DNA of 64,000 bases from NCBI RefSeq assembly GCF_964355755.1, contig NC_092676.1, positions 8,967,888-9,031,887 of the forward strand, given 5' to 3'. Within the stretch, counting starts at the first letter, position 1. Each line of letters begins with the position of its first letter. Source of the stretch: Antedon mediterranea. Taxonomy: Eukaryota; Animalia; Echinodermata. The position numbers and the translations under genes were made by a program. Shown piece after piece: positions 2,923 through 51,757 of this stretch. The notes under the pieces are model-generated. The model saw nothing but the letters and a program-made list of their open reading frames with translations. It made no database searches and was not told the DNA's origin.

Positions 2923-5506
2923 TGTGGGGATTAATCTAATCATGTGATAATTAAATACTGCCCCCTATAGGTGTTACTGCCCCCTATAGGTGTTACTGCC
3001 CCCTATAATTGTAACAGTCTTTTTCAAATGATTTGCTTTCTTTTGTATTCATGAACCGGTCAAGGAAGCAGATAGTTTTGTCTCTTATTTAATTAAAGAT
3101 CTGATTAAAAGGTAATTACTCTACTTTATACATATATTACTTTGTTATACATTTATAAGATTCTGTTATGTTTAAGAAACATTAATGTTGTATTTTAAGA
3201 TGATTGCATTCATAGGCCTAGACATTTGTTTTGGGTTAACCTTGACTCATGGAATGTGCAGTTAGGAAGCCTATTGAATAGTATTGTGTTACAATCTTTG
3301 AACTAGGATTTTATGCCATATAATGTTATAATATATACTTTTGTGATAAACCTTCTTTGTATTAACAAAATATGTTTAGATAGATTTAGTAATGTTTAGT
3401 TTATAGAAGATAGTTTCTAGTTAACAGTTTGTATAAAATAGTTCATCCTACAGTTCACACTTGATTAATTTGTACACACGAGGCTACCATGCTCGTGATA
3501 GATCGTCATGTAGTGCGCCCTCTATTTATCATACAAAATGGCTGCGCCCATGGATTTGTTATTTATATATTTTACACAAACCTAAGATTATAACTCCTTG
3601 ATTCAATGAATAGACTAAGTTTAGTATTCAAATAGTGTGAGTAAATTCCAACATGCATTTATTCTAGTAATATAATAGTAATATTCAGGCACTTATGAAT
3701 ATGCAATTGTGTAGGTAATTAATTAGGTATTTGTATACTCTAACAAAGTATACAGAGGCTGTTTAGGTAGACGTGCCGTTTGATGTAATAGTCGCAGTCC
3801 TCAGAGAGAATCCTTTTTATTAGAGTCGCCTGTTAAGTTGAGGTCGTTACTAAGAATTGGCTTACGTATTTTAGAATATTATTTACTTTTGTTTCTCATT
3901 GTATTTATTTTGTGGTTTTCAGGACCATACTGATCTCTATTGTTATGCTAAAAACAAATTAAAACCAAATACACCACCGGACCGTGGTAAAAGTGAGAAA
4001 AGGCGTGTTTTTCCTTTTGTGTTGTCGTCCACATCCTTACAATTTGGTGTCAGAAGTGGGATCGTGGATCGTATTTGGCTTTAACATTAGAGATCAGTGA
4101 TGGCAAGCAAGGCATCGTTGCGAGATGTGCAGAGGACGGTTGATGAGCTAAGAGCCGAACTAGAAGCAACTAGGCGTGCTGCCCATGGTAATGGAAACAC
4201 AGTATATGTTCTCCCAGAGAAGAAGATGAGACACTTTGTGGGAGCCGAAGGGGAATGTGTAGAGTCCTTTGTTGAAGACGATGGTACTGGGGACGTTTAC
4301 CCTGACTGGCCTGATGATGCTGGCATTGACTCTGAAAATGCTGAAAAGATTCTTCTTGTTGTGAATAATATTAAGTTTGAGGACAAACTCAGCTTAAACA
4401 GGGGAGTGTGGGGATTAATCTAATCATGTGATAATTAAATACTGCCCCCTATAGGTGTTACTGCCCCCTATAATTGTAACAGTCTTTTTCAAATGATTTG
4501 CTTTCTTTTGTATTCATGAACCGGTCAAGGAAGCAGATAGTTTTGTCTCTTATTTAATTAAAGATCTGATTAAAAGGTAATTACTCTACTTTATACATAT
4601 ATTACTTTGTTATACATTTATAAGATTCTGTTATGTTTAAGAAACATTAATGTTGTATTTTAAGATGATTGCATTCATAGGCCTAGACATTTGTTTTGGG
4701 TTAACCTTGACTCATGGAATGTGCAGTTAGGAAGCCTATTGAATAGTATTGTGTTACAATCTTTGAACTAGGATTTTATGCCATATAATGTTATAATATA
4801 TACTTTTGTGATAAACCTTCTTTGTATTAACAAAATATGTTTAGATAGATTTAGTAATGTTTAGTTTATAGAAGATAGTTTCTAGTTAACAGTTTGTATA
4901 AAATAGTTCATCCTACAGTTCACACTTGATTAATTTGTACACACGAGGCTACCATGCTCGTGATAGATCGTCATGTAGTGCGCCCTCTATTTATCATACA
5001 AAATGGCTGCGCCCATGGATTTGTTATTTATATATTTTACACAAACCTAAGATTATAACTCCTTGATTCAATGAATAGACTAAGTTTAGTATTCAAATAG
5101 TGTGAGTAAATTCCAACATGCATTTATTCTAGTAATATAATAGTAATATTCAGGCACTTATGAATATGCAATTGTGTAGGTAATTAATTAGGTATTTGTA
5201 TACTCTAACAAAGTATACAGAGGCTGTTTAGGTAGACGTGCCGTTTGATGTAATAGTCGCAGTCCTCAGAGAGAATCCTTTTTATTAGAGTCGCCTGTTA
5301 AGTTGAGGTCGTTACTAAGAATTGGCTTACGTATTTTAGAATATTATTTACTTTTGTTTCTCATTGTATTTATTTTGTGGTTTTCAGGACCATACTGATC
5401 TCTATTGTTATGCTAAAAACAAATTAAAACCAAATACACCACCGGACCGTGGTAAAAGTGAGAAAAGGCGTGTTTTTCCTTTTGTGTTGTCGTCCACATC
5501 CTTACA
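2923..5506 (+). mobile_element. Non-autonomous Gypsy-type LTR retroelement (two ~1.1-kb LTRs, 365-bp interior)
   Basis: LTRs 2923-4041 and 4407-5506, both TGT...ACA. 4-bp TSD TATA (2919-2922, 5507-5510), with the empty site at ~12731. PBS TGGTGTCAGAAGTGGGAT at 4045-4062 (tRNA-Leu-like). PPT ...AGGGGAG ends at 4406. Confidence 0.95.
4097..4423 (+). pseudogene. Truncated gag N-terminus fused to the 3' end of the element
   Basis: ORF just after the PBS: a coiled-coil then TVYVLPEKKMRHFVG, resembling Gypsy gag starts. It runs through the PPT into the 3' LTR; no pol is present. Confidence 0.65.
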
Positions 5507-5624: not shown

Positions 5625-6055
5625 ATGGATTCCTTTGAGTTAGCGAAAAAAAGTATCGAGACTTGAGATGACGAGATGTGCAATAGCATGATAGAGAAGA
5701 TTTTGCAAGACTTTGATTTTTCGCAGATAGAAGTTACCTAATTAGGAGGAGGTGAAACAAGGCTTGAAAAATCTATAGCAGAGTTGAAGAAAGCAGTGCA
5801 GTGTTGCATTGCAAAAGAATTGAACGTTGGACGAATGATTACTAGTTTGACTTTAGCACGCCACCTATCTGACAGGTACAGCGGACACGAAAACAAATTT
5901 GCAGCGTTTGTCGCACAATGTTTCGAAGAAAGGTCCGATAGGGTTGATAATCGGAACTTGTGCTATTGCCACCAGGTCGGTAGAAGGAAAACAAGATAAA
6001 AGCAAGTTTGAACATATATACTGGAATGAATATACACGGATCTGACTGCCGCTAG
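5625..6055 (+). pseudogene. Orphan ORF with Bcl-2 BH1/BH2-like motifs, copy 1 (disrupted)
   Basis: MDSFELAKKSIET*DDEMCN...KELNVGRMITSLTLARHL...; two in-frame stops and two deletions relative to sister copies. The consensus of copies is an open ~159-aa frame. Confidence 0.55.
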
Positions 6056-6170
6056 GCCAGTAAATATATATTTTTATAGGCCAGTAAAATATATTTTTAT
6101 AGGCCAGTAAAAAATAATTTTTATAGGCCCGTAAAATATATTTTTTATAGGCCAGTAAAATATATTTATA
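6052..6170. repeat. Minisatellite, ~5 x 22-23 bp (TAGGCCAGTAAAATATATTTTTA)
   Basis: Directly visible; starts at the stop codon of the orphan ORF. Repeated at ~13279-13397 and ~24234-24352. Confidence 0.9.
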
Positions 6171-6440
6171 GTGTTAGTCGCGGTTGCTTCCCGCAGTCGT
6201 ACAATCGTCAAAGCGCAGTCGCTGCTTCATGCGATCAACAGTTTAAAAGAAAAAAATTTAAAAACCTGAAACAATTTGTCGTTTTCTTTTTCTTTTATTT
6301 TGATCTTCATACATTTTTACAGAAAAACTATGCAATGCAACTTGACTTAAAAACTAACTTTAAAAAAAAAAAGAAATCTCAGAGAAAATATGTCGTTTTT
6401 TTGCAATCAGAGCAGACCATGATGATATCGACAATTCATC

Positions 6441-7198
6441 TTATTTTACGCTGTTTTTTTTGGCCCTGAAACATTCAATATTCACGTAACCTACGGTTAG
6501 AAATTGCATCTTGTAGCCTTCTGACATCGGCATTCTCGATTGTTCGTAATCACCAAATTGTTGCATTATATACGCTATCGTGTTTACAGTCTCTTCTTCT
6601 TTGAATAACGGCCACAGTATCAAAATTCTTGCACATTTATTAAGTTCGAACATGATTTCCGAAACTACACCGCATTTCATTTTGCTTTCCGTAAGTATTT
6701 TCACCGTCCAGCGGCATTCTTCTAAAAATGCTTGTAATTTCTCTGCTACACCAAGAAATTTACCGCCGACTATTAAGAAATCGTACGGTTGCTTTTTTGT
6801 TGAAGGTGGCAGCGGAGGCAACAGCATAGTTGTGCTGACCTTCTGTATCAGGTCGGTTCTTTGTAGGAAAAAAAAACAACAACAATTTAGAATAAGATTT
6901 GAAGAAAAAAAATTGTTAGTAATATAATAATAGTATAATAGTAATAATTATGTAAACAAAAGAAGAAAAAAACTTACGAAGGAGGGATCTTGGCTAGCCT
7001 AGGGTCAAGCTGGTGATTTGTTGGCTTCGAGAAAATGACTGCTGGAAACATCTTGCTACAAGTATGTAATTTTCTCTGCGGTTCTTCTGTGTTATTTTCT
7101 TCTGTGTTATTCTTCTCGATGAAGCTAAGATTGTGTGAAGCTGTATTGAAACCTCTGTTCTTTATATAGTTTTCAACTGATGATGATGACATCATCAT
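6441..7198 (-). CDS. Two-exon orphan gene, 212 aa, TIR-like C-terminal domain, copy 1
   Basis: Exons 7198-6978 and 6858-6441. The 119-nt intron has a GTAAG donor, TACTAAC branch point and pyrimidine tract ending in AG. Splicing joins the 74-aa and 128-aa ORFs in frame (221+418=639 nt). CCAAT at ~7220. Confidence 0.7.
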
Positions 7199-7344
7199 TA
7201 ACGAATTTGGGAGATTCTGATTGGCCGGTTAATACATTTACAGTTTCATTTTAAAGTTTTTGTAATCTTACATTGTTAACTTTCACAGTTTTTTATGCTA
7301 AAGCTAGGCGTGGCCGAAACAAGTTAAATCCCTGCGCATGGTCA

Positions 7345-7410
7345 ACAGCCAATTGGTCTACAATTGTACCCTCAGGAAGCCCTCATTTGCATATCTCCGT
7401 GTATAAGAAA
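7345..7410 (+). promoter_or_regulatory. Histone H2B promoter (CCAAT, octamer, TATA)
   Basis: CCAAT at 7349, octamer ATTTGCAT at 7385-7392 and TATAA at 7402, upstream of the H2B ATG at 7469. The octamer is the established H2B subtype element. Confidence 0.85.
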
Positions 7411-7468
7411 TAAGCTTGTTTAACAACCAGTCACTTCAATTTTTTCATCGTGCATTAAATTGTGAAGC

Positions 7469-7524
7469 ATGCCACCAAAAACCTCAAAAAAAGCTGCTAA
7501 AAAAGCCGGTAAAGCCAAAGCCGT
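7469..7524 (+). pseudogene. H2B: Histone H2B N-terminal stub
   Basis: MPPKTSKKAAKKAGKAKA then an abrupt loss of similarity; no histone fold and no stem-loop. Confidence 0.85.
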
Positions 7525-8053
7525 AATATTCTACCAGTATAATCTTTAATACACATCTGTATTTTCTGATATAGACAACAATTTCAGAAGTCCATCAACA
7601 AAATTGTATTCTATACATCTCCATACAACCGTTATGATTAAACGAGTATAATGAATATTAATGAATAATCTATCAGAGAGAGAGAGAGGGAGAGAAAAAT
7701 AGTGTTTTTAATACAACACACGGAAACCCAGATGATGAGTTTGCCGGGCATCATTAACATCGAATTTTGACAATTATTCATAAACAATATTACAAATAAA
7801 ACAATTAGACATTTCTTTAAGGTCTTTTAAGCTTTAATTTTCTATTATATTTGTGCAATTCGCTATATGAATGTTTGTCTTAACCCGGACGTTATGTTTA
7901 GATATATATTTTTTTGTACTTTCCCATTTTTGTATTTTTCTTTTTTATTGTTATATTTTGTTTCTTTGGACGCACCTTAACAAGTTGAAGTGTGCCACTG
8001 ATAAAAAAAAAAAGTACAATGCCAAAAAATTGTTATTATTAATTATATCGATG

Positions 8054-8753
8054 ACAAATTTCGTTTTTGTAAAAGCACAAGTTAACGGAGTACTTACTCG
8101 AACGTTTCGATCTCTATCAGAGATCCTTCTCAACTGACTGCGGAGTGTTAATGCAGCTTGGTCATTCTTGACGTCATCTGTTGATGACGTTGTACGCCTC
8201 CGGTTGTAGGTTGGAGGTTGTGCGGGGCTCGGCCAGGTGATGTGTCTATCAAATCATTGTACAAATGCGAGAGTTCGTGGGCTCCAGTGTCCCGGTTCAT
8301 GGTCTTCTCTTTATTTCTCCTTATATGTAATGATTCTCTAATCTGTCTGTCTTTGCGTTTAGGCTCTTTGGTTAAGATGGTAGCCTCCCAGTTCGGTACA
8401 TGATTGTGTTTTATGACATGTTCTGTAATGGCAGATTTGTGTATGATCGAAGATGTGGATGTTCTGGAGGCCCTAGTCATTACTCTCCCCGTGTTTGTTG
8501 TAACAAGGGCCTCCAGAACATCCACATCTTCGATCCACACCCCCGCACAACCTCCAACCTACAACCGGAGGCGTACAACGTCATCAACAGATGACGTCAA
8601 GAATGACCAAGCTGCATTAACACTCCGCAGTCAGTTGAGAAGGATCTCTGATAGAGATCGAAACGTTCGAGTAAGTACTCCGTTAACTTGTGCTTTTACA
8701 AAAACGAAATTTGTCATCTATACAAAATCGAAGCTAAATGAAATTCTTTCAAG
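8054..8753 (-). mobile_element. Penelope-like element fragment (GIY-YIG C-terminus with inverted pseudo-LTRs)
   Basis: Minus-strand peptide KSAITEHVIKHNHVPNW..ILTKE...RQIRESLHIR...MNRDTG.HELSHLY. Inverted ~178-bp repeats at 8050-8227 and 8541-8718. Flanking duplication ATTAATTATATCGATG (8038-8053, 8754-8769). Absent at ~14750 and ~26230. Confidence 0.9.
8633..8668 (+). ncRNA. Minimal hammerhead-ribozyme-like motif in the Penelope pLTR (mirror copy ~8100-8135 on minus)
   Basis: TTGAGAAG-GATCTCT-GAT-AGAGATC-GAAAC: variant core, stem II hairpin and GAAA. Hammerheads are established in PLE pLTRs. Confidence 0.65.
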
Positions 8754-12851: not shown

Positions 12852-13282
12852 ATGGATTCCTTTGAGTTAGCGAAAAAAAGTATCGAGACTTGAGATGACG
12901 AGATGTGCAATAGCATGATAGAGAAGATTTTGCAAGACTTTGATTTTTCGCAGATAGAAGTTACCTAATTAGGAGGAGGTGAAACAAGGCTTGAAAAATC
13001 TATAGCAGAGTTGAAGAAAGCAGTGCAGTGTTGCATTGCAAAAGAATTGAACGTTGGACGAATGATTACTAGTTTGACTTTAGCACGCCACCTATCTGAC
13101 AGGTACAGCGGACACGAAAACAAATTTGCAGCGTTTGTCGCACAATGTTTCGAAGAAAGGTCCGATAGGGTTGATAATCGGAACTTGTGCTATTCCCACC
13201 AGGTCGGTAGAAGGAAAACAAGATAAAAGCAAGTTTGAACATATATACTGGAATGAATATACACGGATCTGACTGCCGCTAG
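12852..13282 (+). pseudogene. Bcl-2-like orphan ORF, copy 2 (disrupted)
   Basis: Near-identical to 5625-6055. Confidence 0.55.
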
Positions 13283-13666
13283 GCCAGTAAATATATATTT
13301 TTATAGGCCAGTAAAATATATTTTTATAGGCCAGTAAAAAATAATTTTTACAGGCCAGTAAAATATATTTTTTATAGGCCAGTAAAATATATTTATAGTG
13401 TTAGTTGCGGTTGCTTCCCGCAGTCGTACAATCGTCAAAGCGCAGTCGCTGCTTCATGCGATCAACAGTTTAAAAGAAAAAAATTTAAAAACCTGAAACA
13501 ATTTGTCGTTTTCTTTTTCTTTTATTTTGATCTTCATACATTTTTACAGAAAAACTATGCAATGCAACTTGACTTAAAAACTAACTTTAAAAAAAAAAGA
13601 AATCTCAGAGAAAATATGTCGTTTTTTTGCAATCAGAGCAGACCATGATGATATCGACAATTCATC

Positions 13667-14424
13667 TTATTTTACGCTGTTTTTTTTGGCCCTGAAACAT
13701 TCAATATTCACGTAACCTACGGTTAGAAATTGCATCTTGTAGCCTTCTGACATCGGCATTCTCGATTGTTCGTAATCACCAAATTGTTGCATTATATACG
13801 CTATCGTGTTTACAGTCTCTTCTTCTTTGAATAACGGCCACAGTATCAAAATTCTTGCACATTTATTTAGTTCGAACATGATTTCCGAAACTACACCGCA
13901 TTTCATTTTGCTTTCCGTTAGTATTTTCACCGTCCAGCGGCATTCTTCTAAAAATGCTTGTAATTTCTCTGCTACACCAAGAAATTTACCGCCGACTATT
14001 AAGAAATCGTACGGTTGCTTTTTTGTTGAAGGTGGCAGCGGAGGCAACAGCATAGTTGTGCTGACCTTCTGTATCAGGTCGGTTCTTTGTAGGAAAAAAA
14101 AACAACAAAAATTTAGAATAAGATTTGAAGAAAAAAAATTGTTAGTAATATAATAATAGTATAATAGTAATAATTATGTAAACAAAAGAAGAAAAAAACT
14201 TACGAAGGAGGGATCTTGGCTAGCCTAGGGTCAAGCTGGTGATTTGTTGGCTTCGAGAAAATGACTGCTGGAAACATCTTGCTACAAGTATGTAATTTTC
14301 TCTGCGGTTCTTCTGTGTTATTTTCTTCTGTGTTATTCTTCTCGATGAAGCTAAGATTGTGTGAAGCTGTATTGAAACCTCTGTTCTTTATATAGTTTTC
14401 AACTGATGATGATGACATCATCAT
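13667..14424 (-). CDS. Two-exon TIR-like orphan gene, copy 2
   Basis: Same exon and intron structure and same peptide as 6441-7198. Confidence 0.7.
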
Positions 14425-18351: not shown

Positions 18352-18734
18352 ATGGATTCCTTTGAGTTAGCAAAAAAAAGTATCGAGACTAGAGATGACG
18401 AGATGCGCAATAGCATGATAGAGAAGATTTTGCAAGACTTTGATTTTTCGCAGAAAAAAGTTACATAATTAGGAGGAGGTGAAACAAGGCTTGAAAAATC
18501 TATAGCAGAGTTGAAGAAAGCAGTGCAGTATTGCATTGCAAAAGAATTGAACGTTGGACGAATGATTACTAGTTTGACTTTAGCACGCCTCCTATCTGAC
18601 AGGTACAGCGGACACGAAAACGAATTTGCAGCGTTTGTCGCACAATGTTTCGAAGAAAGGTCCGCCCGCTTCGGGTGGCCGGACATGCAGGGTTTGATAA
18701 TCGGAACTTGTGCTATTGCCACCAGGTCGGTAGA
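18352..18734 (+). pseudogene. Bcl-2-like orphan ORF, copy 3 (3'-truncated at a sub-repeat junction)
   Basis: Retains ...EERSARFGWPDMQGLIIGTCAIATRSVE then jumps to the H1-H4 spacer sequence. Confidence 0.55.
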
Positions 18735-19289
18735 ATATTATATATTATCTCTATTATAATAACAATTAAGTTTTTAGAAAATTTTGTACAGATAGTTGTA
18801 TTACCTTTTAATACTTATTTTACCGGTAGTACTGACATTAAAGCGTCGTGTTTCTTTGTCGTGAACGAAACATCACTACTATATCAAAATAATAACTAAT
18901 AATTAAATTGAAATAATGACTCATAACATATTCTTTTTTTTTCCATAATTAACTGTGCTGTTGATTGAATATTTATATATATAAAAGAGTAGTCCTTTTA
19001 TTTAATATTATTTTTTTTTGCAAAGACAAACAACGATGATTTTATTGACCCTTGCACTTACATTCCTCTTTGTTCAGTTTTATTCGTTACGATCATTGTA
19101 TATATAGTTTCGATGGTGGACGACTGACCCAATTTTTCTAGAGATATTTATGTTACTGACGAAATGCAAATTGACATAATTACAGTTGAGCAACGTCCGC
19201 ACAAAGCGTATAACTACTTCGGCATTTCGATTTTCGACAGTTTCCACACATTTCGAATAATTCTGAGTGATTCTTAATATCGATTAAAC

Positions 19290-20840: not shown

Positions 20841-21223
20841 ATGGATTCCTTTGAGTTTGCGAAAAAAAGTATCGAGACTAGAGATGACGAGATGCGCAAT
20901 AGCATGATAGAGAAGATTTTGCAAGACTTTGATTTTTCGCAGATAGAAGTTACATAATTAGGAGGAGGTGAAACAAGGCTTGAAAAATCTATAGCAGAGT
21001 TGAAGAAAGCAGTGCAGTGTTGCATTGCAAAAGAATTGAACGTTGGACGAATGATTACTAGTTTGACTTTAGCACGCCTCCTATCTGACAGGTACAGCGG
21101 ACACGAAAACGAATTTGCAGCGTTTGTCGCACAATGTTTCGAAGAAAGGTCCGCCCGCTTCGGGTGGCCGGACATGCAGGGTTTGATAATCGGAACTTGT
21201 GCTATTGCCACCAGGTCGGTAGA
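20841..21223 (+). pseudogene. Bcl-2-like orphan ORF, copy 4 (3'-truncated)
   Basis: Same junction as copy 3. Confidence 0.55.
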
Positions 21224-21771
21224 ATATTATATATTATCTCTATTATAATAACAATTAAGTTTTTAGAAAATTTTGTACAGATAGTTGTATTACCTTTTAA
21301 TACTTATTTTACCGGTAGTACTGACATTAAAGCGTCGTGTTTCTTTGTCGTGAACGAAACATCACTACTATATCAAAATAATAACTAATAATTAAATTGA
21401 AATAATGACTCATAACATATTCTTTTTTTTTCCATAATTAACTGTGCTGTTGATTGAATATTTATATATATAAAAGAGTAGTCCTTTTATTTAATAATAT
21501 TTTATTTTGCAAAGACAAACAACGATGATTTTATTGACCCTTGCACTTACATTCCTTTTTGTTCAGTTTTATTCGTTACGATCATTGTATATATAGTTTC
21601 GATGGTGGACGACTGACCCAAATTTTCTAGAGATATTTATGTTACTGACGAAATGCAAATTGACATAATTACAGTTGAGCAACGTCCGCACAAAGCGTAT
21701 AAATACTTCGGCATTTCGACAGTTTCCACATATTTCGAATAATTCTGAGTGATTCTTAATATCGATTAAAC

Positions 21772-22083: not shown

Positions 22084-22912
22084 ACTCGATGCTTTTTCAA
22101 AACACAAGGCTCTTTTAGTAGAACCAAAAAGAGATTTATTTCCTTTTTTTTAATTGTTTAATATGATTCAATAATTTCAAATAATCCAGTGATTTTTCAG
22201 AAATGTATTGATTATTAAAATAATTTTTCTTAAATTTGTTAAGAATTATTTTTTCAGGGGGACAATACATCTTTAATAAATATAAACAAAGAAGGAGCTT
22301 CCTCCATGTCATAAAGCTAAAAATATAAGATATGAATTAGGCATGTTTTTGTATTATACCATATACTAAGATATACAAATAGTATTAAGTAATACTTAAG
22401 AACCACCAGTTGAACCAAAAGAGATTTATTTGCTTTTCTTTAATTTTTTAATATGATTTAAAAATTTCAAATAATCGATTGATTTTTCAGAAATGTATTG
22501 ATTATTAAAATGTATTATAATAGAAAACCATTTTAGAGATCAATACTCACAAATAACAAACGTATTGTGGTAGCATTTACATTTTATGGTATTTTAACCT
22601 ATATAGGCCTATGTAAAATAAAAGTAGTAACGCGGTAATAATTGATTTAGCACGAATTGGGACGATTCCTCTCGCTTCTAAAAGTTACGTAATGAGTAAC
22701 ATTTTCTATATTTAAACAAATACATACAAAATAGCGCCACATATGCCTTTGTTAACATAAAGAGTCACACGTCGTATAAGGAAAACACGCCTCTTATATA
22801 AATGTTTTGTTTTTTAGAAGTTCTTTTACTATAGCTTTTTTTATCATAATTATGTGTAAAATGCTTCACACAAAAAAAAGGGAATAGAGAATAAGAGAGA
22901 TAATTATACGAA

Positions 22913-24237
22913 ATAGATTCCTTTGAGTTAGCGAAAAAAAGTATCGAGACTAGAGATGACGAGATGTGCAATAGCATGATAGAGAAGATTTTGCAAGACT
23001 TTAATTTTTCGCAGATAGAAGTTACCTTATTAGGAGGAGGTGAAACAAGGCTTGAAAAATCTATAGCAGAGTTGAAGAAAGCAGTGCAAAAGAATTGAAC
23101 GTTGGACGAATGATTACTAGTTTGACTTTAGCACGCCACCTATCTGACAGGTACAGCGGACACGAAAACGAATTTGCAGCGGTTGTCGCACAATGTTTCC
23201 GCCCGCTTCGGGTGGCCGGATGCGATTTTTTTTTTCGTTGTTGGGGACCCCCTCATGAAACATCACAAAATAAACATGAATAATTCATCAGTTAAATTTT
23301 CTTGTTTCGTGTGCACCCAAGCGTATAGCAACAAGAAGTGATTAGGTACACAAGTGCGGTACGATTCTAGGCCTAATCTCCGCTGTGGTTGCCGCGTGGG
23401 ATTTCATAAAAGAATAGCCGCGTTTTGTGTGGATTGTCGAAATAATCAGCCTTTAGTTTATGGTGTTTTTAATATAATTTATTACTAAAGAATTACTTGT
23501 TAAAATTATAGTTTCTATTAATACTATTAGGCCTAATTATTAGTCTCTAAACCCATATTCTAGTAGTAGCTGTGTGGGTGTGTGTGACGTGTGTGTGTTA
23601 GGTATGACACAGTCCGAGTAATAAGTCAGCAAAATTAAACATTAAACATTACACAAAAATACATTTTTTATTCTCGTGGGTCTAATCTTCCCATCTCATG
23701 TGTTCATATACGCGCATTTTTAAAGTTCCTTTGAGTACATGCATATTGTTTGATAATAAAATAGCAGAATTAAAAAATTACAGTACACAAATTATACACA
23801 TTTTTTATTCTTGTGGGTCTAAGCTTTCTTTGGGCTATGTCCAATTACTACTTAGTTTAATGTCTTGCCTAGCTGTCGCGAAGGCAATCACGTGAATTGA
23901 CCTAGAATCCTAGGCCTACTGTAGAAAGAATCGTATCGCAGTTTAGTTGTGCGTGTAATCACTTCTTGTTGCTATACGCTTGGTTGCAGACGGAACAACA
24001 AATTTAACTGATGAATTATTCATGTTTATTTTGTAACGTTTCACGAGGGGTCCCCAACTTGTGTACGAAAAAAAAAATCGCTGGCCGGACATGCAGGGTT
24101 TGATAATCGGAACTTGTGCTATTGCCACCAGGTCGGTAGAAGGAAAACCAATTTTTATGATCGAGGAGGCGCGCAAGATAAAAGCAAGTTTGAACATATA
24201 TACTGGAATGAATATACACGGATCTGACTGCCGCTAG
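22913..24237 (+). pseudogene. Bcl-2-like orphan ORF, copy 5, split by a DNA transposon
   Basis: Start ATA. Lacks both stops seen in copies 1-2 (ACT AGA; ACC TTA TTA) and keeps the full 3' part ...VEGKPIFMIEEARKIKASLNIYTGMNIHGSDCR*. Confidence 0.55.
23222..24081. mobile_element. Non-autonomous MULE/Mutator-like DNA transposon, 860 bp
   Basis: ~145-bp imperfect TIRs (GCGATTTTTTTTTTCGT... / ...ACGAAAAAAAAAATCGC). 9-bp TSD TGGCCGGAT/TGGCCGGAC, with the empty site at ~18675. Confidence 0.85.
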
Positions 24238-24620
24238 GCCAGTAAATATATATTTTTATAGGCCAGTAAAATATATTTTTATAGGCCAGTAAAAAATAAT
24301 TTTTATAGGCCAGTAAAATATATTTTTTATAGGCCAGTAAAATATATTTATAGTGTTAGTCGCGGTTGCTTCCCGCAGTCGTACAATCGTCAAAGCGCAG
24401 TCGCTGCTTCATGCGATCAACAGTTTAAAAGAAAAAATTAAAAAACCTGAATCAATTTGTCGTTTTCTTTTTCTTTTATTTTGATCTTCATACATTTTTA
24501 CAGAAAAACTATGCAATGCAACTTGACTTAAAAACTAACTTAAAAAAAAAAAGAAATCTCAGAGAAAATATGTCGTTTTTTTGCAATCAGAGCAGACCAT
24601 GATGATATCGACAATTCATC

Positions 24621-25378
24621 TTATTTTACGCTGTTTTTTTTGGCCCTGAAACATTCAATATTCACGTAACCTACGGTTAGAAATTGCATCTTGTAGCCTT
24701 CTGACATCGGCATTCTCGATTGTTCGTAATCACCAAATTGTTGCATTATATACGCTATCGTGTTTACAGTCTCTTCTTCTTTGAATAACGGCCACAGTAT
24801 CAAAATTCTTGCACATTTATTTAGTTCGAACATGATTTCCGAAACTACACCGCATTTCATTTTGCTTTCCGTAAGTATTTTCACCGTCCAGCGGCATTCT
24901 TCTAAAAATGCTTGTAATTTCTCTGCTACACCAAGAAATTTACCGCCGACTATTAAGAAATCGTACGGTTGCTTTTTTGTTGAAGGTGGCAGCGGAGGCA
25001 ACAGCATAGTTGTGCTGACCTTCTGTATCAGGTCGGTTCTTTGTAGGAAAAAAAAACAACAACAATTTAGAATAAGATTTGAAGAAAAAAAATTGTTAGT
25101 AATATAATAATAGTATAATAGTAATAATTATGTAAACAAAAGAAGAAAAAAACTTACGAAGGAGGGATCTTGGCTAGCCTAGGGTCAAGCTGGTGATTTG
25201 TTGGCTTCGAGAAAATGACTGCTGGAAACATCTTGCTACAAGTATGTAATTTTCTCTGCGGTTCTTCTGTGTTATTTTCTTCTGTGTTATTCTTCTCGAT
25301 GAAGCTAAGATTGTGTGAAGCTGTATTGAAACCTCTGTTCTTTATATAGTTTTCAACTGGTGATGATGACATCATCAT
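24621..25378 (-). CDS. Two-exon TIR-like orphan gene, copy 3
   Basis: Same structure, one S>P change in exon 1. Confidence 0.7.
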
Positions 25379-25648: not shown

Positions 25649-25704
25649 ATGCCACCAAAAACCTCAAAAAAAGCTGCTAAAAAAGCCGGTAAAGCCAAAG
25701 CCGT
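25649..25704 (+). pseudogene. H2B: Histone H2B stub, copy 2 (promoter at ~25525-25590)
   Basis: Identical to 7469-7524, with octamer and CCAAT upstream. Confidence 0.85.
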
Positions 25705-29063: not shown

Positions 29064-31996
29064 ATTTGAGATTTGAGGAAGTTCCGAAAACTGATCGTTA
29101 AATGTATTCCGACTAATGAAACATTACGGCCAGGTTTCCCCGAATGGTAAGACATAATTATAGGAACTCAGAACACGCTTGTTAATGAACTCATCTCTTA
29201 TTTACATTTAGTATTTACAAATCTTGCATTATTTATAAAACAAGCAAACGGATTATCACTTGGAATTTATTTAAGATAGAACTATTTAAAAAAATTTAAT
29301 TAATAAAAGCAATATTATGTTCAAAATGTAAAACTATACAATTTTATAAAAGTATCCAAACAAAACATAATCTTATAATGCAATATACCATTTTATCATA
29401 TTTATTTATATTATATCGAATCTCTTTTTAATACTGAATATCAATCTTTATATCGTTTTAGCTCTGTAATATAAATTTTCTCTGTATACATGTTTGTTTT
29501 ATCTAGACTTGAACACAATTTCAAAATATTTTACATAATCTTCCTCTGTCTGTGTAATATCACCTAAATATTCATTGATAAATAGATAGATAGACAGACA
29601 TATATATTGTAACCTTCACCATATTGTTGTTTATCATTGCAATAAAAGTGGGTTTCCCCCACAAAAGAGAAAAAAAATATATATTGCTGAAATTAAGCCT
29701 CAATAAATAATATTGTTGAGAAGAGGAACACATTTATACAGTATATAATTATATCCCATTTTCATGCATAAAGCAATAGTATCTGCCTCTGAAGCACCAC
29801 CAACAAGATATTATTTTTTTTAAATATATCCCATGTATAAGCAATATTATTATCTATCTGCCTCTGACGTCTCCAAGCACCATGAACAAGCATTTTGGAA
29901 CATCTTCATCCACGGTGACGCTTGTAATGTCTCCCGCCAATCTTGCGGCATCCATGGCCATTGCCACGTCAAAGTTGTACGCTCTGGATGAGGCATGATC
30001 GCCAGATGACGGCCATCTGCGGAGCAAATTGCCGCTACGCCATTGGGTGAGCCATTGGGGTTCAACGGGTATTCAGTTGTCACTTCTCCTTTGTCATCGA
30101 TAAAGCGCACTGGTGCAAGATTTTCAGACAGAACTGTGTCTTTTGTTTCTTTGTTAGAAAACTTCATGTGCCCTAGAGAGAAACAATTTGAGTTGAGTAA
30201 ATTTAATAACATTTTTAGTTAAATTAAAATATAAGTTTGTACTAAGCATCCATCATTATCAAGAGGTATCAATATCTAACCTTCTCCATGCTGTGTCCAG
30301 ACACCAAGCACAGAGCCTTCCATTCCTTTCAGCATTAAAGCAGGGCTTTCATTAATCTTTACAGCAACAAAACGAGACTCAAAACGCTCGGAAAGATTAT
30401 GAGCAAGATGGACTCCTTGCTGAGCTGATGCTGCGTCTAAAAGACAATAACAAATAATTCATAATAAACAGTCTGTCAACAAATGGATATCAAAAAGTAG
30501 TTCATATTTTCTTTTTACTTGTCAAAGAGGCATTACCTGCTTTACACCGGTGTCCTACTACCACTACACTACTTACTAAATATACCTCATGATACCTTAC
30601 CTGTAGTAAGCTCCTTGGTGACATCTGGAGCAACCCAGCCTAGCAGGCCCATTAGTTGGCAGCCATTGCATACACCCAGTGAGAAAGTGTCTTTCCTTGC
30701 TCTAAATGCATCAAACTGAGCACGCACAGCTGGGTTGAACAAAATAGTTGCTGCCCAACCTAAAATGATTAATAAACATTATTTAAATAAACTAGAATAA
30801 ATATTTATTTAGGTTACTATCTGTCTAATACTAGTATAATACTTGGTTACTGCTCCAGCATGTATTTTTGCTATGCTACAAAAAGTGCAATCAGAAAAGT
30901 ATACCTTTTGCAGAACCACAAACGTCTGCAAAACTGAAGCCACCAACAAAAACTACTCCACGGAATTGATCGAGGGTGACTTTCCCGCAAGCTAAATCTT
31001 GCATATTGACGTCCCATGTTTCAAAGCCAGCCATGTGTAGTGTTGAACTCATCTCTCGATCTCCATTACTGCCTTCCTCACGGATCACAGCAACCTTTGG
31101 TTTCATTCCATCTATGGAAGGCCAATTATGATTATGTATATGGTAACTAATGAGCCAAATTTAACTCGTATTACTTTAACAAATTAAAATTCAGAACAAG
31201 ATAATCAATATTCCAAAATTGGTTCTAACCTTTAGAGCATCTTTTTTTAACAGAATTCAAATTTGTTGCAACGGGGTCAAAGGTTAATTTAAATGGTGGT
31301 GCTGTTCTATTTGCTAAATTGCGTTGCTCCACTTCAACACACTCTGGATTTGCTTGTAGTTTTTCCAGTTGAAAACTAGTCTCTTCCCACACGTCTCTAA
31401 GAACAGTCATCTTTTCATTCAAGACTTCTTTCTCATTTACCGAGATGACAACCTATAATTGACATGTAAAATATTCAGATTCATTCTAAAAACCATCATA
31501 AATGATAAATGATCGTAAATAAATGTTCAAATATTGCTTCCATTTAAAAAAAAAAAAACTTACTATTGACCCTTGACCTGATCCACTAGAGTGACCAATT
31601 AGAGAACAAGGGACATTATTGTCACTGAACTGTCTACAAATGTCCTCACTAGCATTAGCTGTTACTTCTAACACCAGCCCTACTTCTTCAGCAAACAGAA
31701 TATCAATTGCAGTTACTGAAAATAAATATATAAAGTCTTACAATGTATTATTGCTTACCAGAGGTTCTGGAACTATATGAAAGATTAAAATGACACTTTA
31801 CAGATCCATTCGAGGCATTTATAGAGATAGCATAATGCTTACCATCAGGTTTGGAAAGTTTGACGTCAATACCACAATTCCCAGAAAACGCCATTTCTAA
31901 TAATGTTGTTACAATACCGCCATCACTAATATCATGACCAGCTGATATTTTTCTATCTACAAAAGGATACAAAAGACAAAGTTGAATTCATATCTC

Positions 31997-32151
31997 TAAA
32001 GCTCTGTCTACACTATCAAACTTTATGTGATGTGATATGCCCATATATGGACATGATATCATATCACTACCATTTTTGGGCATTTCACTACCCTATTTAG
32101 GCGCATCACATTTTTTTGTCAAACTAGTTTGATAGTGTAGACAGCGCTTTA
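31997..32151. mobile_element. MITE in a PFAS intron (PIF/Harbinger-like termini)
   Basis: TIR AGCTCTGTCTACACTATCAAACT ... AGTTTGATAGTGTAGACAGCGCT, flanked by TAA/TTA. Related partial copy at ~35827-35934; duplicates at ~45075-45229 and ~48890-48998. Confidence 0.75.
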
Positions 32152-33459
32152 TATTATAACTACAAGTAAATAAATTTATTGTAAACGTCTAATTAATAAG
32201 TCTATGAAAATGACTACCTTTGATAAGATTTTGCGTTGTGTTGAAAGCCCTTACAAACGTTTCCGGTTCATCGAGATCAGGCGAGGATTGTCCGAGTTGA
32301 TTATAGCACTGAGCGAGGGCACTACCACCTAACCGGTTATGCCTTTTACCAAATGAAACCCAGAGCAAAGTCCCTGAAATAGAATATGTAAAGTCTTGTT
32401 TATAAATATATTATATTTTTTGTTTGTTTAGGTAGTTAATTTAATTGTACCTAACAAAATGTGCAATGTTATATTCACTTTACCTTTACTGTCTGGACAT
32501 TTAAGGTCAGGGGTCACAGTTGCAGTAATATCTGGGCATGCCACATACACAGACACAACCAATGCACCTAAAAAATTGTAATTGATATTTCATTATTAGT
32601 AAGTAAATGGAGTAAAGAAGTGTATTAGTGTATTCAAGCTTAACTTATTAAAATAATTCACAAGATTGTACATCAGACTCTATACTAGTTATTAACAAGC
32701 ATGAAATGTCTAACCTGGAGCTTTGATCGTTTCAGAGCCTATCCTGGCAGCCATACTCAAAGAGTCCTTCCCACCATCCACAGCAACACCCAACTTGCCC
32801 ATCACCTCGCACATAGCCTCGCATGCATCATACAATGCAGCACCCTCACCAGGAAGCTTCGCTGGCCACATCCAGTTACCGCTACATTTGACATCTTTAA
32901 GATCGGAGACCCTAGCAAACACAAGATTGGTAAGGGCTTCTCCTACAGACATCCTGGCACCACAGCCAGGATCGACTAACCCTTTAATAGGCTGCTCTCC
33001 AATGGCTGTAGCTGAGCCTACAGTTTCAAAGTGGGAGAGTGCGGTAACAGCAACATCAGCGAGTGGTGTGTGCAGGGGGCCTACACATTGCTGCTGGGCT
33101 ATCAGGCCAGTGACAGCACGATCAACCTAACAGAAACAATATATCCTGGTTATACACTTTCCATATTCCTTCACACAAATAGATTATGCAATATTAAAGA
33201 TAAACAGATCTTTACCTTATTAGTCAAAAATCTTTTACTGGCTACTGAAGGTAGACGCAGAACACGGTCGAGTGCACATCGGACAGTCAACCCATCAGGT
33301 AGTGTTAACTGCATAAGTTTTGGTTTACATCGATCATACTTGAAAACCTGAGAGAAAAAAAAATATAATTCTATATAATTTTACAGACAGAAAGAGACAC
33401 TATTATTATAACACATAATTATTTTCAATGGTTATTTATGATGAAATCTGTGAGATTGA

Positions 33460-33540
33460 GAAAAAGTGACCTCAGCTGAGATTTGAACCTGGAATCTTCT
33501 GCTTGATATGCAGACATCCTACCATTACACCACTGATGCA
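33460..33540 (-). mobile_element. tRNA-derived SINE head or tRNA pseudogene in an intron
   Basis: Minus strand has TGGTGTAATGG (A box) and GGTTCAAATC (B box) but no clean cloverleaf. Duplicate at ~46540-46618. Confidence 0.5.
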
Positions 33541-36500
33541 TTCATGGTATGGTTCAAACTTATTACCGACACTACTCTACTATCAAGTCTCCATCATACC
33601 TTTTGCGGCATCTTTCCAAGAACCCATTCAAGTTGGAGATCAACTGGATAAGTAAGTGCTGTTCTTTTTATGCTTGGAGGTTCTGCATCACCCTTACCAG
33701 CTTCCACTTTCTTTTCCACCTCAAGACGAATCTGAAACAAAACAAAATATTTTTGTATTGCAAAACTCTTATGCACTCTATCTGTGCATGAAAAGGCATT
33801 CTTCAAAATTAGTAACACTGTAGTATTTAAATGTGTTTTTTCATACTTATCCCACAGTAAGCACAAACTTGCCAATTACAGGATGGATAAAATATTTTAT
33901 AGTTTATCGTGCTTATAAACTAAGTTTTATTTCAGGCTTAGGGAGTGAAGTTGAAAGAGTCGTGAGTTACAACCCTTGACCTTGATTGAACCCTTGACCT
34001 TGGAATTGGAAGGCAAGCATGTTAAACCACCAAGCAACAGCTCCACTAAAAAAATTTAGAATAAAGTAGGTAAAAAAAATCATCCAAATATTACCTTCCC
34101 ATCACCTGTAATGTCACCAACAAAAACAGCTGGACATTTCTCTCTGTCACAAATATCTTGAAGTTTTTCTTGATCCTCAGATCGTATTAGTATGGCATTG
34201 GACTCCTGGTATTCTGCACCCCATAGTTCTAAGGTGTTGATGGTTGGATCACCTAGTTGGAATTCCTTAGCTTTTATTAGAGCACCTGCAGGTTCACATA
34301 TCTCCTTTAAAACATTACCTGTACACAAAAAAATGATTTAATTGGTCAGATGTTAGCCATAGTTTGACATAAAAATAAGTACATTTGTCTGACAAAGTGT
34401 CCCCTTAATAGGGATGTCCCAAATGAGGGGTGCTACTGTACTTAGTAAAATAATAAAAATAAGCACATTGCATGCAAACTCACCATTGCCTCCAGCTCCT
34501 TGATCATGTATACTACATATAGGGTTTGTATCAACCATCTCAATGCACGCCCTTATAACTCGGTTTAGTTTCTGTTCCATCTCCGCATCACCGCGCTGCA
34601 CGGCTTCAAAGTCCAGTTTTTCTGTATTGTCACCTTGAACTTGAATGGAAGATGCAGCGCCCCCACCGACTCCGATGCGATAGATTGGTCCACCAAGTTT
34701 TACAATTTTCATTCCTGCATGGTAAACAATTATTTATCAGTCAATAATTAGTTTTCAATGGAGAAATAAAAACAAAATATTTTATCAGGTTACTATAATC
34801 TTATTTTATATGACAGACATATAATATCTATGTGGAGACAACAATAATAAGAAGTACAGTATTTTTTATGGTGTTGTATTTAGTTTGTTTAACAAACCTT
34901 TTTCTGCTTCGTCTTTAGTCGCATGCATACTCTCAAGCATCCCAATACCCCCGCTGAACATAATGGGCTTGACCCACTCTCTTCTGTCGCTCTCAGAAAG
35001 CATCATGCCAAATGAACGAGAGAAACCGGTTAGAACGGGTTCACCAAACTTGTTGCCGTAGTCAGATGCACCGTTGCTGGCCTCTACAGCAACCGACAGA
35101 GCAGGCGCCATGTTGCTAGGATAAACCATATTTTTGTCCTCCCATGGAAGGTCATACCCTGTTTAAACAAAATGTTCAATCAATGATAATAAATAATTAA
35201 TTACACTGAATATATAACATTTATAAAAAGCAAAATTATGTAATTAAGCAAGCAATTATGCCTGTTCACTGCATGCGTTACTTAATATCTTTCATCCCAT
35301 ACTCTATTTATACATATAAGTGCCAGTAAATGAATATCTTTTAATTGTTGTTACTTTGCAAATCTTTGATAAGGTTTATCCTTTATATTTGTATATTTGT
35401 TATGTTTTATTTTCTGTTATATTTGTATTTATTTTGATTTTTGAGCGAGTAAAGTCTGACATCAATTTTCATAAGGACTACAAAATCTAATTTTTAGATT
35501 TATATAATTTACCTGGAATGTTCAAATTTCCAAAACAGTAGCCTGCAGTGCCAGCCACTACATGTGCCCCCTTCCCTGCAGCCTGAACATCACGTATCCT
35601 ACCCCCAGTACCAGTTGTAGCCCCTGGGAAAGGTGCAACCCCAGTTGGAAAGTTATGGGTCTCTGCTGTGAAGATGATATGCCTGAGTGGTTCAGATTCC
35701 TCCATCACACTTGCTGACCCGGGATTGGCTGGTTTGAGAACTTTGACCTTATGGCCTTTGATTGCACTGAAAATCAAGTAAAGTCATCAAAGTGAGAAAA
35801 AACAGTATAGGTTCATTGACAACATTTAAAGCTCCTACTGTCCCCAAATATGGTAGTGATATGACATCATCATATCCATATATGGGCACATCACATTTTT
35901 TTACATAAAAGTTGATAGTGTAGACAGAGCTTTAGGCAATACTTTGTGGTTCAACAAAATGTGAATAAATATCATTTACGATGGAAATTATGCCTGTAGT
36001 ATTTTATGGGCTATTTCATGACACCCTCTAGAACTAATAATTTCAGGTATAATGCCTAATTCTGTCCAGCACAACAAGATTTATACAAGAGTCATAGACA
36101 CCATTCCAGTGAACTATATCGTGATTCGATTCGGAAAATATGGATATAAATATAAAAGCCACGTAAAATGTTAAGATACCTGCTGTTATCCGAGAATTTA
36201 ATGACGTTGTTATCATTGCTGGTAGCTTGCGTTGACATCACCATCTTGAATAAAGAATGATCTTTTTCTTCTCCATCGATTACCATCTTACCCTTAAAAA
36301 ACCAATGACGACTATGCTCACTAGAAAGAAGACAGAAAGCAAGAAAAAACCATTTGTAGGAATATTTTCAGGAATTTCTAAATACAGTAATGAAAGCTGA
36401 GAAATGTTGCATAGATGAAAAGAATTTAAGTAAAGAATGGTCTATGTCTTAGGATTATCCATGGTTACAAATACTATTTTACATTATTTTAGGCTAGAAG

Positions 36501-37171
36501 GCAAATAGACAATGCCACAATTGTTTTTCACCTGTTTTTTTTTTCAGTTATATATTGAGGCAGATGGTATCTTTGTTCTTTTTGACTGTTTTACTTCATT
36601 TACTTTATTTTTACCTCATTTTGATTTAGCTATTTAGCATATTCTATTTATATCTCTATCCAATCACTGATATACTCACAGCATTGCAATACTGTATTTT
36701 CAATAATTTAGGTTTGTATTAAATAAAGATATTACTTTTACAAGACAGTAAAGAATGTAAATAAATATTCATGACCATCATTCACAGATGGTAAAACTTC
36801 ATGCGACTAAAACTAAAGTGCTTTGTACCTGTTAGACTGAGCCAAGTCAAAGAGTTCAACACTTGTTGGATTCCGTTTAACCTTTTCAATAAACATGTTG
36901 GTGTAAAAGTCTATGTCCCACGTATCAAAGGCAAGTCCTGCAGTAAAGAATAATACAAAATGTTTATAATGCAATATTAATAATAGAAATCTTCATCAAC
37001 CATTTATTGGTCATGATAAGCTTTGGTTTATAAATTCAATAACAATGAATTCTTAAATGAACAATGTATCCACAGACCGATTAAATAATTACTGTACAGT
37101 AATATTAACTGGTTACTAGAACACACTTAAAAGAATATGAAATCATGTTGGATGTTAAGCTAAATGTAATG

Positions 37172-37427
37172 TTAAAGACCTATTCCCTACAATTTTTGCC
37201 TTGTCTTTTCTGTTTTATGGTAAATTATGATAAAAAGAAAGAAACAATGCACATGCACAATGCATGTTATGATTTATAGAAAGTCTCTAAATGATTAGAA
37301 TCAACTTATTTTTCACATTTTTAACAGTTTTAAAGACGAAAAAGTGATCGCATACATATTTATTTTTACATTAAATGTAGTTTGTGACCTATAATTAGAT
37401 CTAAAAACGTAGGAAATGGGACTTTAA
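37172..37427. mobile_element. TTAA-flanked MITE (Kolobok-like)
   Basis: TTAA-AGACCTATTCCCTAC ... GTAGGAAATGGGACT-TTAA, imperfect 15-bp TIR. Confidence 0.5.
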
Positions 37428-40785: not shown

Positions 40786-41273
40786 GGGTATTGCTAAACT
40801 GCGCAAACAACAACAAAAGCTGCGCAAACCTCCTTCAAAACAATTATTATTGATTAGAACACAACTAGAACTATATAGGGAGACAATTTATGGGAAAAAG
40901 AATTTAAAATTCCTTTAAGTTTGCCTTTTTTTGGGTGAAAAACTTCAATTTTTGGGAAAATTACTGATTTAACAGCTCAAAGAACAAAAAAAGCTGCGCA
41001 AACCTCCTTCAAAACAAATAATATTGATAGAACACAACTAGAACTATATAGTGAGACAATTTATGGGGGAAAAAAATTGAAATTCCTTTAAGTTTGCCTT
41101 TTTTTGGGTGAAAAACTTCAATTTTTGGGAAAATTACTGATTTCACAGCGCAAACAACAAAAAAAGCTGCGCAAACCTCCTTTAAATCAATTAATATTGA
41201 TTAGATAACAACTAGAACTATATAGGGAGACAATTTATGGGAAAACAAATTTGAATTTCCTTGGAGTTTGCCT
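40786..41273. mobile_element. Truncated left arm of the foldback element (~2.7 x 173-bp units)
   Basis: Same GGGTATTGCTAAACTGCGC terminus and repeats as 52446 onward; ends abruptly at 41273. Confidence 0.85.
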
Positions 41274-51647: not shown

Positions 51648-51757
51648 ATTCTTTAAAAAAATAAATTATTAAATATTAGATCTATATTATTTTATATATT
51701 ATTATTTATTATTATTGATGTTTACACTAAAAAAGTATAACTATAAAGTATATGACT

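What the first reader, a model, noticed from the sequence alone, without database searches (positions are those of the whole stretch)
6441..7198. Hidden spliced gene: two ORF-track fragments join into a 212-aa TIR-like protein
Seen: GTAAG donor (6977), TACTAAC branch point (6921-6915) and AG acceptor (6859) splice in frame: ...AKIPPS-TDLIQKVSTTMLLPP. The segment YDFLIVGG-KFLGVAEKLQAFLEECRWTVKI...CGVVSEIMFELNKCARILILW follows the TIR betaA-alphaA-betaB-alphaB-betaC pattern. Past the TAA the frame continues DELSISSWSALIAKK, resembling the last TIR helix, so the stop may be premature. The peptide is essentially unchanged in three copies while adjacent histones are broken. It is divergent from the H2B promoter and could borrow its cell-cycle elements (inference).
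Basis: partly seen in the sequence, partly recalled or inferred. Interest (0 to 1): 0.75.

Follow-up and report, generated by a model that had tools for sequence, protein, structure and literature searches.

The report
Truncated TIR-like gene amid crinoid histones
A feather star carries a spliced gene among decaying histone genes; it is already an unnamed database entry, and its protein likely folds as a shortened immune-signalling (TIR) domain that would most likely act as a non-enzymatic brake on such signalling.

Summary
The splice is real. The 119-nt intron (6977-6859) is skipped exactly in a contig of one RNA-like run and in none of three DNA runs. The gene is not hidden: the same 212-aa protein is RefSeq XP_071956715.1, uncharacterized, Antedon mediterranea. 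It has no sequence relatives and no Pfam hit. ESM Atlas features and structure point to TIR; AlphaFold2 gives a flavodoxin-like core at modest confidence; my TIR profile tests were weak and did not reproduce. The protein likely starts at Met50 (163 aa), because the expressed allele has a frameshift upstream of it. Downstream it shows pN/pS about 0.2 and no indels. The stop is shared by all samples and likely removes the last TIR helix. No glutamate lies at the expected catalytic position. Identity of the three copies is uninformative, since whole repeats are 98-99% identical. Borrowing of the H2B promoter is unsupported: the gene has its own CCAAT and TATA motifs, a poly(A) signal and no stem-loop, and copy 2 lacks the H2B promoter. 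Verdict: a lineage-specific, likely truncated, non-catalytic TIR-only gene; modest interest.

The parts
6978..7051 (-). Coding part of exon 1 from Met50 (likely true start), copy 1
   Evidence: ATG at 7051 with A at -3; X1 has 1 synonymous change and no indel here
7052..7198 (-). 49-codon N-terminal extension of the RefSeq model; likely 5' untranslated
   Evidence: X1 contigs carry a +1 insertion behind 7055, a 3-nt deletion at 7110, and 4 nonsynonymous against 1 synonymous change; with +1 the frame from ATG 7198 stops after 64 codons
6859..6977 (-). 119-nt GT-AG intron with branch motif TACTAAC at 6921-6915
   Evidence: Sequence; skipped exactly in an X1 contig, in 0 of 3 DNA runs
6441..6858 (-). 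Exon 2 coding part: proline-rich linker, then the TIR-like domain (Y99 onward, from about 6785), stop TAA at 6443-6441
   Evidence: stop unchanged in X1 and the three DNA runs
6393..6440 (-). 16 codons after the stop; likely relic of the last TIR helix, now 3' untranslated
   Evidence: Predicted helix at pLDDT 36-38; completes the fold in structure search; X1 has 2 nonsynonymous and 0 synonymous changes here, with indels at 6395 and 6390
6294..6299 (-). AATAAA, likely poly(A) signal; no histone stem-loop on this strand
7162..7224 (-). The gene's own promoter-like motifs: CCAAT at 7224, TATATAA at 7168
   Evidence: kept in all 3 copies; function untested
7352..7525 (+). H2B promoter motifs (CCAAT, octamer at 7385-7392) and 18-codon H2B remnant from 7469
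   Evidence: intact H2B continues differently in loose ends at 7526; octamer label recalled
13667..14424 (-). Copy 2 (intron 14085-14203); H2B promoter and remnant are deleted from 55 nt upstream of the first ATG
24621..25378 (-). Copy 3 (intron 25039-25157), with H2B remnant at 25649
   Evidence: closest to the DNA-run contig (1 difference and 1 gap in 1004 nt)

Best explanation
This is a spliced crinoid gene whose product, likely 163 residues long, is predicted to be a proline-rich linker plus a divergent TIR domain that likely lacks its last helix and its catalytic glutamate, and so would most likely act as a non-enzymatic decoy that dampens Toll/IL-1-type signalling. Shown: the intron, its exact skipping in one run, the open frame, the shared stop, and the absence of detectable relatives. 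Inferred with fair support: start at Met50, purifying selection, TIR ancestry (about 75%). Inferred with weak support: loss of the last helix, no NAD cleavage. Untested: binding to other TIR domains through the retained front face while failing to extend TIR filaments, which use the far face (filament geometry recalled, from no call). The gene likely entered the histone repeat with its own promoter, where H3 is missing, and was copied passively by recent local duplication.
For: Splice joint in X1, 0 of 3 DNA runs; X1 has near-zero cover over 29920-31363 where DNA has 130-150, so it behaves as RNA. From Met50 to the stop X1 differs by 6 synonymous changes (103 sites) and 5 nonsynonymous (386 sites), ratio 0.22, Fisher p=0.014, no indels, while both flanks have indels. 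Atlas: best feature hits are TIRAP (0.87), TRAM (0.86), SEFIR (0.83) for the whole protein, and 'TIR domain-containing' (0.90) for residues 95-212; 10 of the ten best named hits share the clan in both calls; 7 of 10 structure rows for the domain are TIR, and the top row meets the naming bar. AlphaFold2: strand-helix order bA-aA-bB-aB-bC-aC at pLDDT 60-83. Reading the stop as X raises chains at Z>=8 from 0 to 36 and PdTIR from Z 6.8 (94 aligned) to 9.4 (110 aligned). No Glu in residues 164-178; the profile registers put I168 or Y170 at the catalytic column.
Against: No Pfam, PADLOC or NCBIfam hit even at loose limits. No Foldseek match at E<=0.001; VIA ties TIR with anticodon-binding, flavodoxin and receiver domains, and non-TIR chains rank first. 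Atlas scores are at lead level and share only 109-147 of 256 features, under the 170 typical of true family members. Own profiles: the CAP12-type signal (5.9 bits; 0 of 3000 shuffles) fell to 0.8 bits (97 others higher) with a second profile, and 34 of 88 decoys beat the query on TIR_2. Selection rests on 11 changes in contigs of one sample. No protein-level or binding data. X1 contigs reach past 7198, so the start site is not settled.
Confidence: 0.42

Rival explanations
1. A transcribed but decaying TIR relic: the stop crippled the fold, and the remaining constraint is a leftover from before the stop.
For: The stop falls where TIR strand E ends in an aromatic residue, with a Trp 8 codons later, against 9 for Box 3 in PMC7075850 (passages). 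The C-terminal 40 residues model poorly (pLDDT under 45). The neighbourhood is full of broken histones and mobile-element debris. Sea urchin TIR families have many pseudogenes (PMC3367398 passages).
Against: The stop is shared by the assembly, the DNA sample and the RNA sample, and the codons after it already drift (2 nonsynonymous, 0 synonymous, indels), while those before it show pN/pS 0.22 and no indels between the same two sequences.
Confidence: 0.23
2. The domain is not TIR-derived but another flavodoxin-like alpha/beta module (receiver-like, flavodoxin-like or anticodon-binding-like) of a different function.
For: Top VIA hits are an anticodon-binding domain (Z 7.2, rmsd 2.3, 57 aligned) and a pseudo-receiver (Z 9.7, rmsd 2.7, 98 aligned); 3 of 10 Atlas structure rows are flavodoxin or lumazine synthase; in global hhalign the anticodon-binding decoy beat 100 of 100 shuffles, CAP12-TIR 93 of 100.
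Against: All named Atlas feature hits are TIR clan in both calls; TIR chains align over 108-111 residues against 85-105 for receivers; a helix follows strand C, as in TIR; YD..I matches Box 1 positions.
Confidence: 0.17
3. An active NAD+-consuming TIR enzyme that makes cADPR-type signals, using one of E161-E163 or a shifted register.
For: Catalytic TIRs are widespread in animals, echinoderms included (bioRxiv 10.64898/2026.04.20.719644, abstract and passages). Several top TIR fold hits are enzymes or TIR-STING. Three Glu sit at the start of helix C.
Against: The catalytic column maps to I168 (gapless from the shared Pro on the TIR_2 consensus) or Y170 (CAP12 register); no Glu from 164 to 178. 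I could not superpose on ThsB E85, the paper's criterion.
Confidence: 0.1
4. The gene is driven by the neighbouring H2B promoter and is expressed in S phase with the histones.
For: An octamer and a CCAAT lie about 190-220 nt upstream of its TATA motif in copies 1 and 3; X1 has low-depth contigs across this region.
Against: Own CCAAT and TATA motifs; intron; AATAAA; all 11 stem-loop matches in the window are on the + strand, none at this gene. Copy 2 lacks the H2B promoter. Histone genes here are all on the + strand, the echinoderm pattern (PMC13525598 passages), so this H2B promoter is not a natural bidirectional one.
Confidence: 0.08

Closest known systems
RefSeq XP_071956715.1 (uncharacterized protein, Antedon mediterranea)
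   Same: Letter-for-letter the 212-aa spliced product.
   Different: The record gives no family; the first 49 residues are likely untranslated; only one member is listed though the window holds three copies.
TIRAP/MAL and TRAM/TICAM2 sorting adaptors (TIR group 10 and relatives)
   Same: Short disordered N-terminus plus one C-terminal TIR and nothing else; best Atlas feature hits for the whole protein (0.86-0.87); TRAM and TRIF TIRs among fold hits; group 10 also lacks Box 3 (PMC7075850).
   Different: No sequence similarity detected; no Box 2 RDxxPG, which group 10 conserves; no Gly2 after Met50 and no dense basic patch (6 K/R in 49 residues; targeting signals recalled); the last helix likely absent; orthology not shown.
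CAP12/Pycsar-type TIR (PF10137) and TIR-STING TIR domains
   Same: Best local profile register over strand A to strand C; TIR-STING chains 6wt7 and 9lmq are among the best TIR fold hits.
   Different: Signal not reproduced; the near-invariant N-V-x-x-E-x-G motif has no Glu or matching Gly here; no sensor domain.
Non-histone sequences interspersed in histone repeats (5S and rDNA cases)
   Same: A foreign gene lies inside and is repeated with a histone unit (PMC13525598 passages).
   Different: Here it is an intron-containing protein gene, in only three recent copies of a decayed, rearranged unit, not a homogenised array.

Membership tests
TIR domain | Alternating parallel beta-strand and helix core (flavodoxin-like), first three units plus helix C | tested here: met
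   AlphaFold2 single-sequence models, pLDDT 60-83 over this part; Atlas model TM 0.55-0.66 to TIR rows. The fold is shared with non-TIR families.
TIR domain | Profile match above cut-off (PF01582, PF13676, PF10137, PF08357) | tested here: not met
   0 Pfam families for exon 2 at E<=10 and for the whole protein at E<=1; own profiles weak.
TIR domain | Language-model features and structure neighbours specific to TIR | tested here: inconclusive
   All named feature hits TIR clan, scores 0.83-0.90, 109-147 of 256 features shared; one structure row meets the naming bar. A third of shuffled proteins also give ten concordant hits.
TIR domain | Box 1 (consensus YDVFISY, PMC7075850) | tested here: inconclusive
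   YDFLIVG: 3 of 7 positions identical, at the predicted first strand.
TIR domain | Five strands and five helices, ending in helix E (Box 3) | tested here: not met
   The translated product ends without a final helix; a helix is predicted only after the stop, at pLDDT 36-38. Low model confidence limits this test.
Catalytic (NADase) TIR | Glutamate on helix C pointing into the pocket (bioRxiv 10.64898/2026.04.20.719644) | tested here: inconclusive
   Sequence registers give I168 or Y170; no Glu in 164-178; E161-163 at the helix start. No structural superposition was possible.
Catalytic (NADase) TIR | NAD+ cleavage | not testable with these tools
   Needs an assay.
TIRAP/TRAM sorting adaptors | Box 2 BB-loop motif RDxxPG (or EDFxxPG in TRIF-like TIRs) | tested here: not met
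   The loop reads TESKMKCG against motifs in PMC7075850.
TIRAP/TRAM sorting adaptors | N-terminal membrane anchor (myristoylated Gly2 or basic lipid-binding patch; recalled) | tested here: not met
   Neither Met1 nor Met50 is followed by Gly; residues 50-98 hold 10 Pro and 6 K/R, dispersed.
TIRAP/TRAM sorting adaptors | Orthology by tree | not testable with these tools
   No alignable relatives were returned.
Replication-dependent histone-type transcript | No intron, 3' stem-loop instead of poly(A) | tested here: not met
   Intron spliced; AATAAA at 6299; no stem-loop match on the minus strand.

The most novel reading that the evidence does not exclude
A TIR gene moved into the H3 slot of a histone repeat, shed its last helix to become a filament-capping decoy, and is now amplified and switched on with the histone unit, giving dividing (for example regenerating) crinoid cells a built-in brake on Toll-type signalling.
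Probability: 0.06. Interest if true: 0.68.

Novelty: new variant of a known kind. Interest (0 to 1): 0.3.

Why it matters
It gives a probable identity and a corrected start to an unnamed RefSeq orphan, and shows a TIR-like domain too divergent for Pfam to see, so crinoid TIR inventories built on profiles would miss such genes. A naturally fixed loss of the last TIR helix under continuing constraint would be a ready test of whether a one-faced TIR caps signalling filaments. TIR-only and fast-turning-over TIR genes are expected in marine invertebrates, so the base case is not surprising.

Tried and rejected
No whole genome was held, so copies outside the window and other crinoid TIRs could not be searched. 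Homologue searches returned only the protein itself, nothing among 91 longer candidates, and three repeat-protein artefacts (TPR and tandem-repeat proteins, short matches). PDB sequence search: 2 chance hits at E about 1. Viral contigs: 0 of 40 candidates confirmed. Plasmids and phages: only E 2-8 matches. Own profiles from bacterial genomes: TIR_2 (35 sequences) 1.8 bits, 17 of 3000 shuffles but 34 of 88 real alpha/beta decoys as high; PF01582-type (26) nothing; CAP12-type (42) 5.9 bits, 0 of 3000 shuffles, 0 of 88 decoys (best 5.7), 1 unrelated frame of 606 window frames higher, chosen after seeing the sequence; second CAP12 profile (120 proteins) 0.8 bits; designed Rossmann proteins score 15-17 bits on the same alignment. 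Reading the stop as X did not improve profile scores or mean pLDDT (57.4 against 57.2). I first took the TATA motif at 7168 as proof that ATG 7198 lies outside the transcript; dropped, because unstranded X1 contigs reach about 7241. A second intron removing the stop: not seen, one X1 contig spans 6362-6858 unbroken. A retrocopy as source of the joint: not seen in the DNA runs. No run is on record as RNA. No earlier scan findings. No complex prediction was run: no partner was on hand. Six literature searches listed no paper on this gene; the accession itself was not searched and no supplements were read.

Full report
Observation. Removing the 119-nt intron gives an open 212-codon frame. A protein search with exon 2 returned one hit, a 212-aa protein identical to this product: RefSeq XP_071956715.1, 'uncharacterized protein', Antedon mediterranea, a cluster of one. 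So the gene is already annotated, without a family.

Expression. Five runs held the stretch, none on record as RNA; I laid 4 of the 5. Run X1 has a contig that joins 6858 to 6978, skipping exactly the intron, and no cover in the bin 6876-6936; the three DNA runs (one sample) show no joint and cover the intron. As a control, X1 has depth 0-1.3 over 29920-31363 where DNA run X2 has 130-150. X1 therefore behaves as RNA. It also has low cover (5-15) between the histone genes, which may be DNA or pervasive transcription. These are unstranded contigs from one sample: they show the joint, not start, strand or level.

Length and constraint. X1 differs from the window by about 3% in this gene. Upstream of Met50 (7051) its contigs carry a +1 insertion behind 7055, a 3-nt deletion and 4 nonsynonymous against 1 synonymous change; with +1 the frame from ATG 7198 stops after 64 codons. 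From Met50 to the stop there are no indels, 6 synonymous changes on 103 sites and 5 nonsynonymous on 386: ratio 0.22, Fisher p=0.014 (position 6642 was dropped because the DNA runs and copies 2 and 3 share it). The likely product is 163 aa. Against this: contigs drop rare variants, the counts are small, and X1 contigs extend past 7198.

Fold. Pfam, PADLOC and NCBIfam gave nothing, and 1.84 billion representatives gave only the protein itself and three repeat artefacts. AlphaFold2 from one sequence gave mean pLDDT 57, with strand-helix-strand-helix-strand-helix at 60-81 and an unresolved C-terminal 37 residues. Foldseek found nothing at E<=0.001; 12 of 41 listed rows were TIRs. VIA had no Z>=8; an anticodon-binding domain led (Z 7.2, rmsd 2.3, 57 aligned), tied with oyster TIR-STING (6.9, 3.6, 103) and PdTIR (6.8, 3.6, 94); 5 of 50 rows were TIRs. 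The ESM Atlas was the most specific source: whole protein, TIRAP 0.87, TRAM 0.86, SEFIR 0.83; residues 95-212, 'TIR domain-containing' 0.90, 7 of 10 structure rows TIR and the top one over the naming bar, the other 3 flavodoxin or lumazine synthase. Shared features (109-147 of 256) are below what close members show. My own bacterial profiles were equivocal: CAP12-type TIR gave 5.9 bits in the right register, above 3000 of 3000 shuffles and 88 of 88 decoys, but a second profile gave 0.8 bits, hhalign probability was 4.4%, and TIR_2 scored 34 of 88 decoys above the query. Loci left out of these profiles: 2 of 37 TIR_2, 4 of 30 PF01582, 7 of 49 CAP12, 1 of 30 each for flavodoxin and receiver (weak, partial, stop-containing, unlisted or unpublished). 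I put TIR ancestry at about 75%.

The stop. TAA is unchanged in X1 and the DNA runs. Folding with X at the stop and 16 more residues left mean pLDDT at 57 but added a terminal helix (pLDDT 36-38). Chains at Z>=8 rose from 0 to 36; PdTIR reached Z 9.4 over 110 residues, behind a pseudo-receiver at 9.7 over 98, with receivers filling most rows and 6 of 50 rows TIR. TIR-STING became the top Foldseek row at E 0.013. The stop lies where TIR strand E ends in an aromatic residue, and a Trp follows 8 codons later, against 9 for Box 3 (PMC7075850, passages). I had no control fold with an unrelated helix, so this is suggestive only. After the stop X1 has 2 nonsynonymous and 0 synonymous changes, and indels at 6395 and 6390, so the segment looks unconstrained: an old truncation, not read-through.

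Catalysis. Catalytic TIRs need a Glu on helix C (bioRxiv 10.64898/2026.04.20.719644; abstract, section 5 and passages). Here E161-163 start the helix and no Glu lies in 164-178; the TIR_2 consensus maps I168, and the CAP12 register Y170, to that column. Box 2 is absent. An enzyme is unlikely but not excluded.

Setting. H2B, H2A, H1 and H4 all lie on the + strand; all 11 stem-loop matches are on +, the echinoderm pattern (PMC13525598, passages). None of 9 recalled histone motifs, 6 of them for H3, was found. The gene lies on the minus strand between H4 and an 18-codon H2B remnant. It has its own CCAAT (7224) and TATA (7168) motifs and an AATAAA (6299). Copy 2 lost the H2B promoter 55 nt upstream of the first ATG, and loose ends at 7234-7245 in DNA and X1 contigs show both flanks joined to other sequences elsewhere. 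The simplest reading is insertion of a gene with its own promoter, then passive duplication. In X2 the gene's contig depth is 59 against 130-133 for PFAS; the tool warns that this is no copy number, but it hints that three copies are not general.

Mechanism and verdict. Most likely a non-enzymatic TIR-only modulator that keeps the front face of the domain and lacks the far end, and so would join but not extend TIR assemblies (geometry recalled, untested; 0.42). Rivals: decaying relic (0.23), non-TIR fold (0.17), NADase (0.10), histone-coupled expression (0.08). High TIR gene turnover is known in sea urchins (PMC3367398, passages). It works like a TIR-only adaptor or decoy but fails strict membership tests (no profile hit, no Box 2, no last helix), so I file it as a new variant of a known kind. 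Interest 0.3.

Noticed in passing
window 2923-5506: Internally deleted LTR retroelement: two 1.1-kb repeats 98.3% identical with TG...CA ends, a primer-site-like stretch after the first, and a 110-codon gag-like frame (label recalled, no Pfam hit); absent from the matching site in unit 2.
   Followed up: partly
window 8043-8725: A 136-codon minus-strand frame resembling a Penelope-type endonuclease end (recalled; no Pfam hit) between 185-nt inverted arms 98.9% identical, present in unit 1 only.
   Followed up: partly
window 1-29063: Rearranged, decaying histone cluster: 4 H1, 3 H2A, 2 H2B remnants, several H4 copies (unit 1 with a stop and frameshift), no H3 motif found.
   Followed up: partly
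window 29069-39236 and 42145-52320: The 10-kb PFAS (FGAM synthase) gene region is duplicated in tandem at 98.8% identity; real duplication or two haplotypes not resolved.
   Followed up: partly
window 5742-5996, 18469-18756, 20958-21245, 22904-23095 (+): Repeated open frames of 64-96 codons facing the TIR-like gene, no Pfam hit; an X1 contig covers 22700-23199 at depth 13 with 10 differences and 13 gap letters. Possibly another gene remnant.
   Followed up: partly
window 23061-24143 and 31995-32151: Very high-copy dispersed repeats (summed contig depth 10,000-160,000 in both runs).
   Followed up: no
window 40797-41273, 52468-54786, 57199-58532: 172-174-bp satellite arrays and a 21-bp-based compound tandem array.
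   Followed up: no
window 39248-40518 (-): Fragments of a non-LTR retroelement: weak endonuclease match PF14529 (E 0.004) and a GDSL-like piece (E 0.18).
   Followed up: no
window 6053-6167, 13280-13394, 24235-24349: A 24-bp, five-copy minisatellite just downstream of each gene copy.
   Followed up: no
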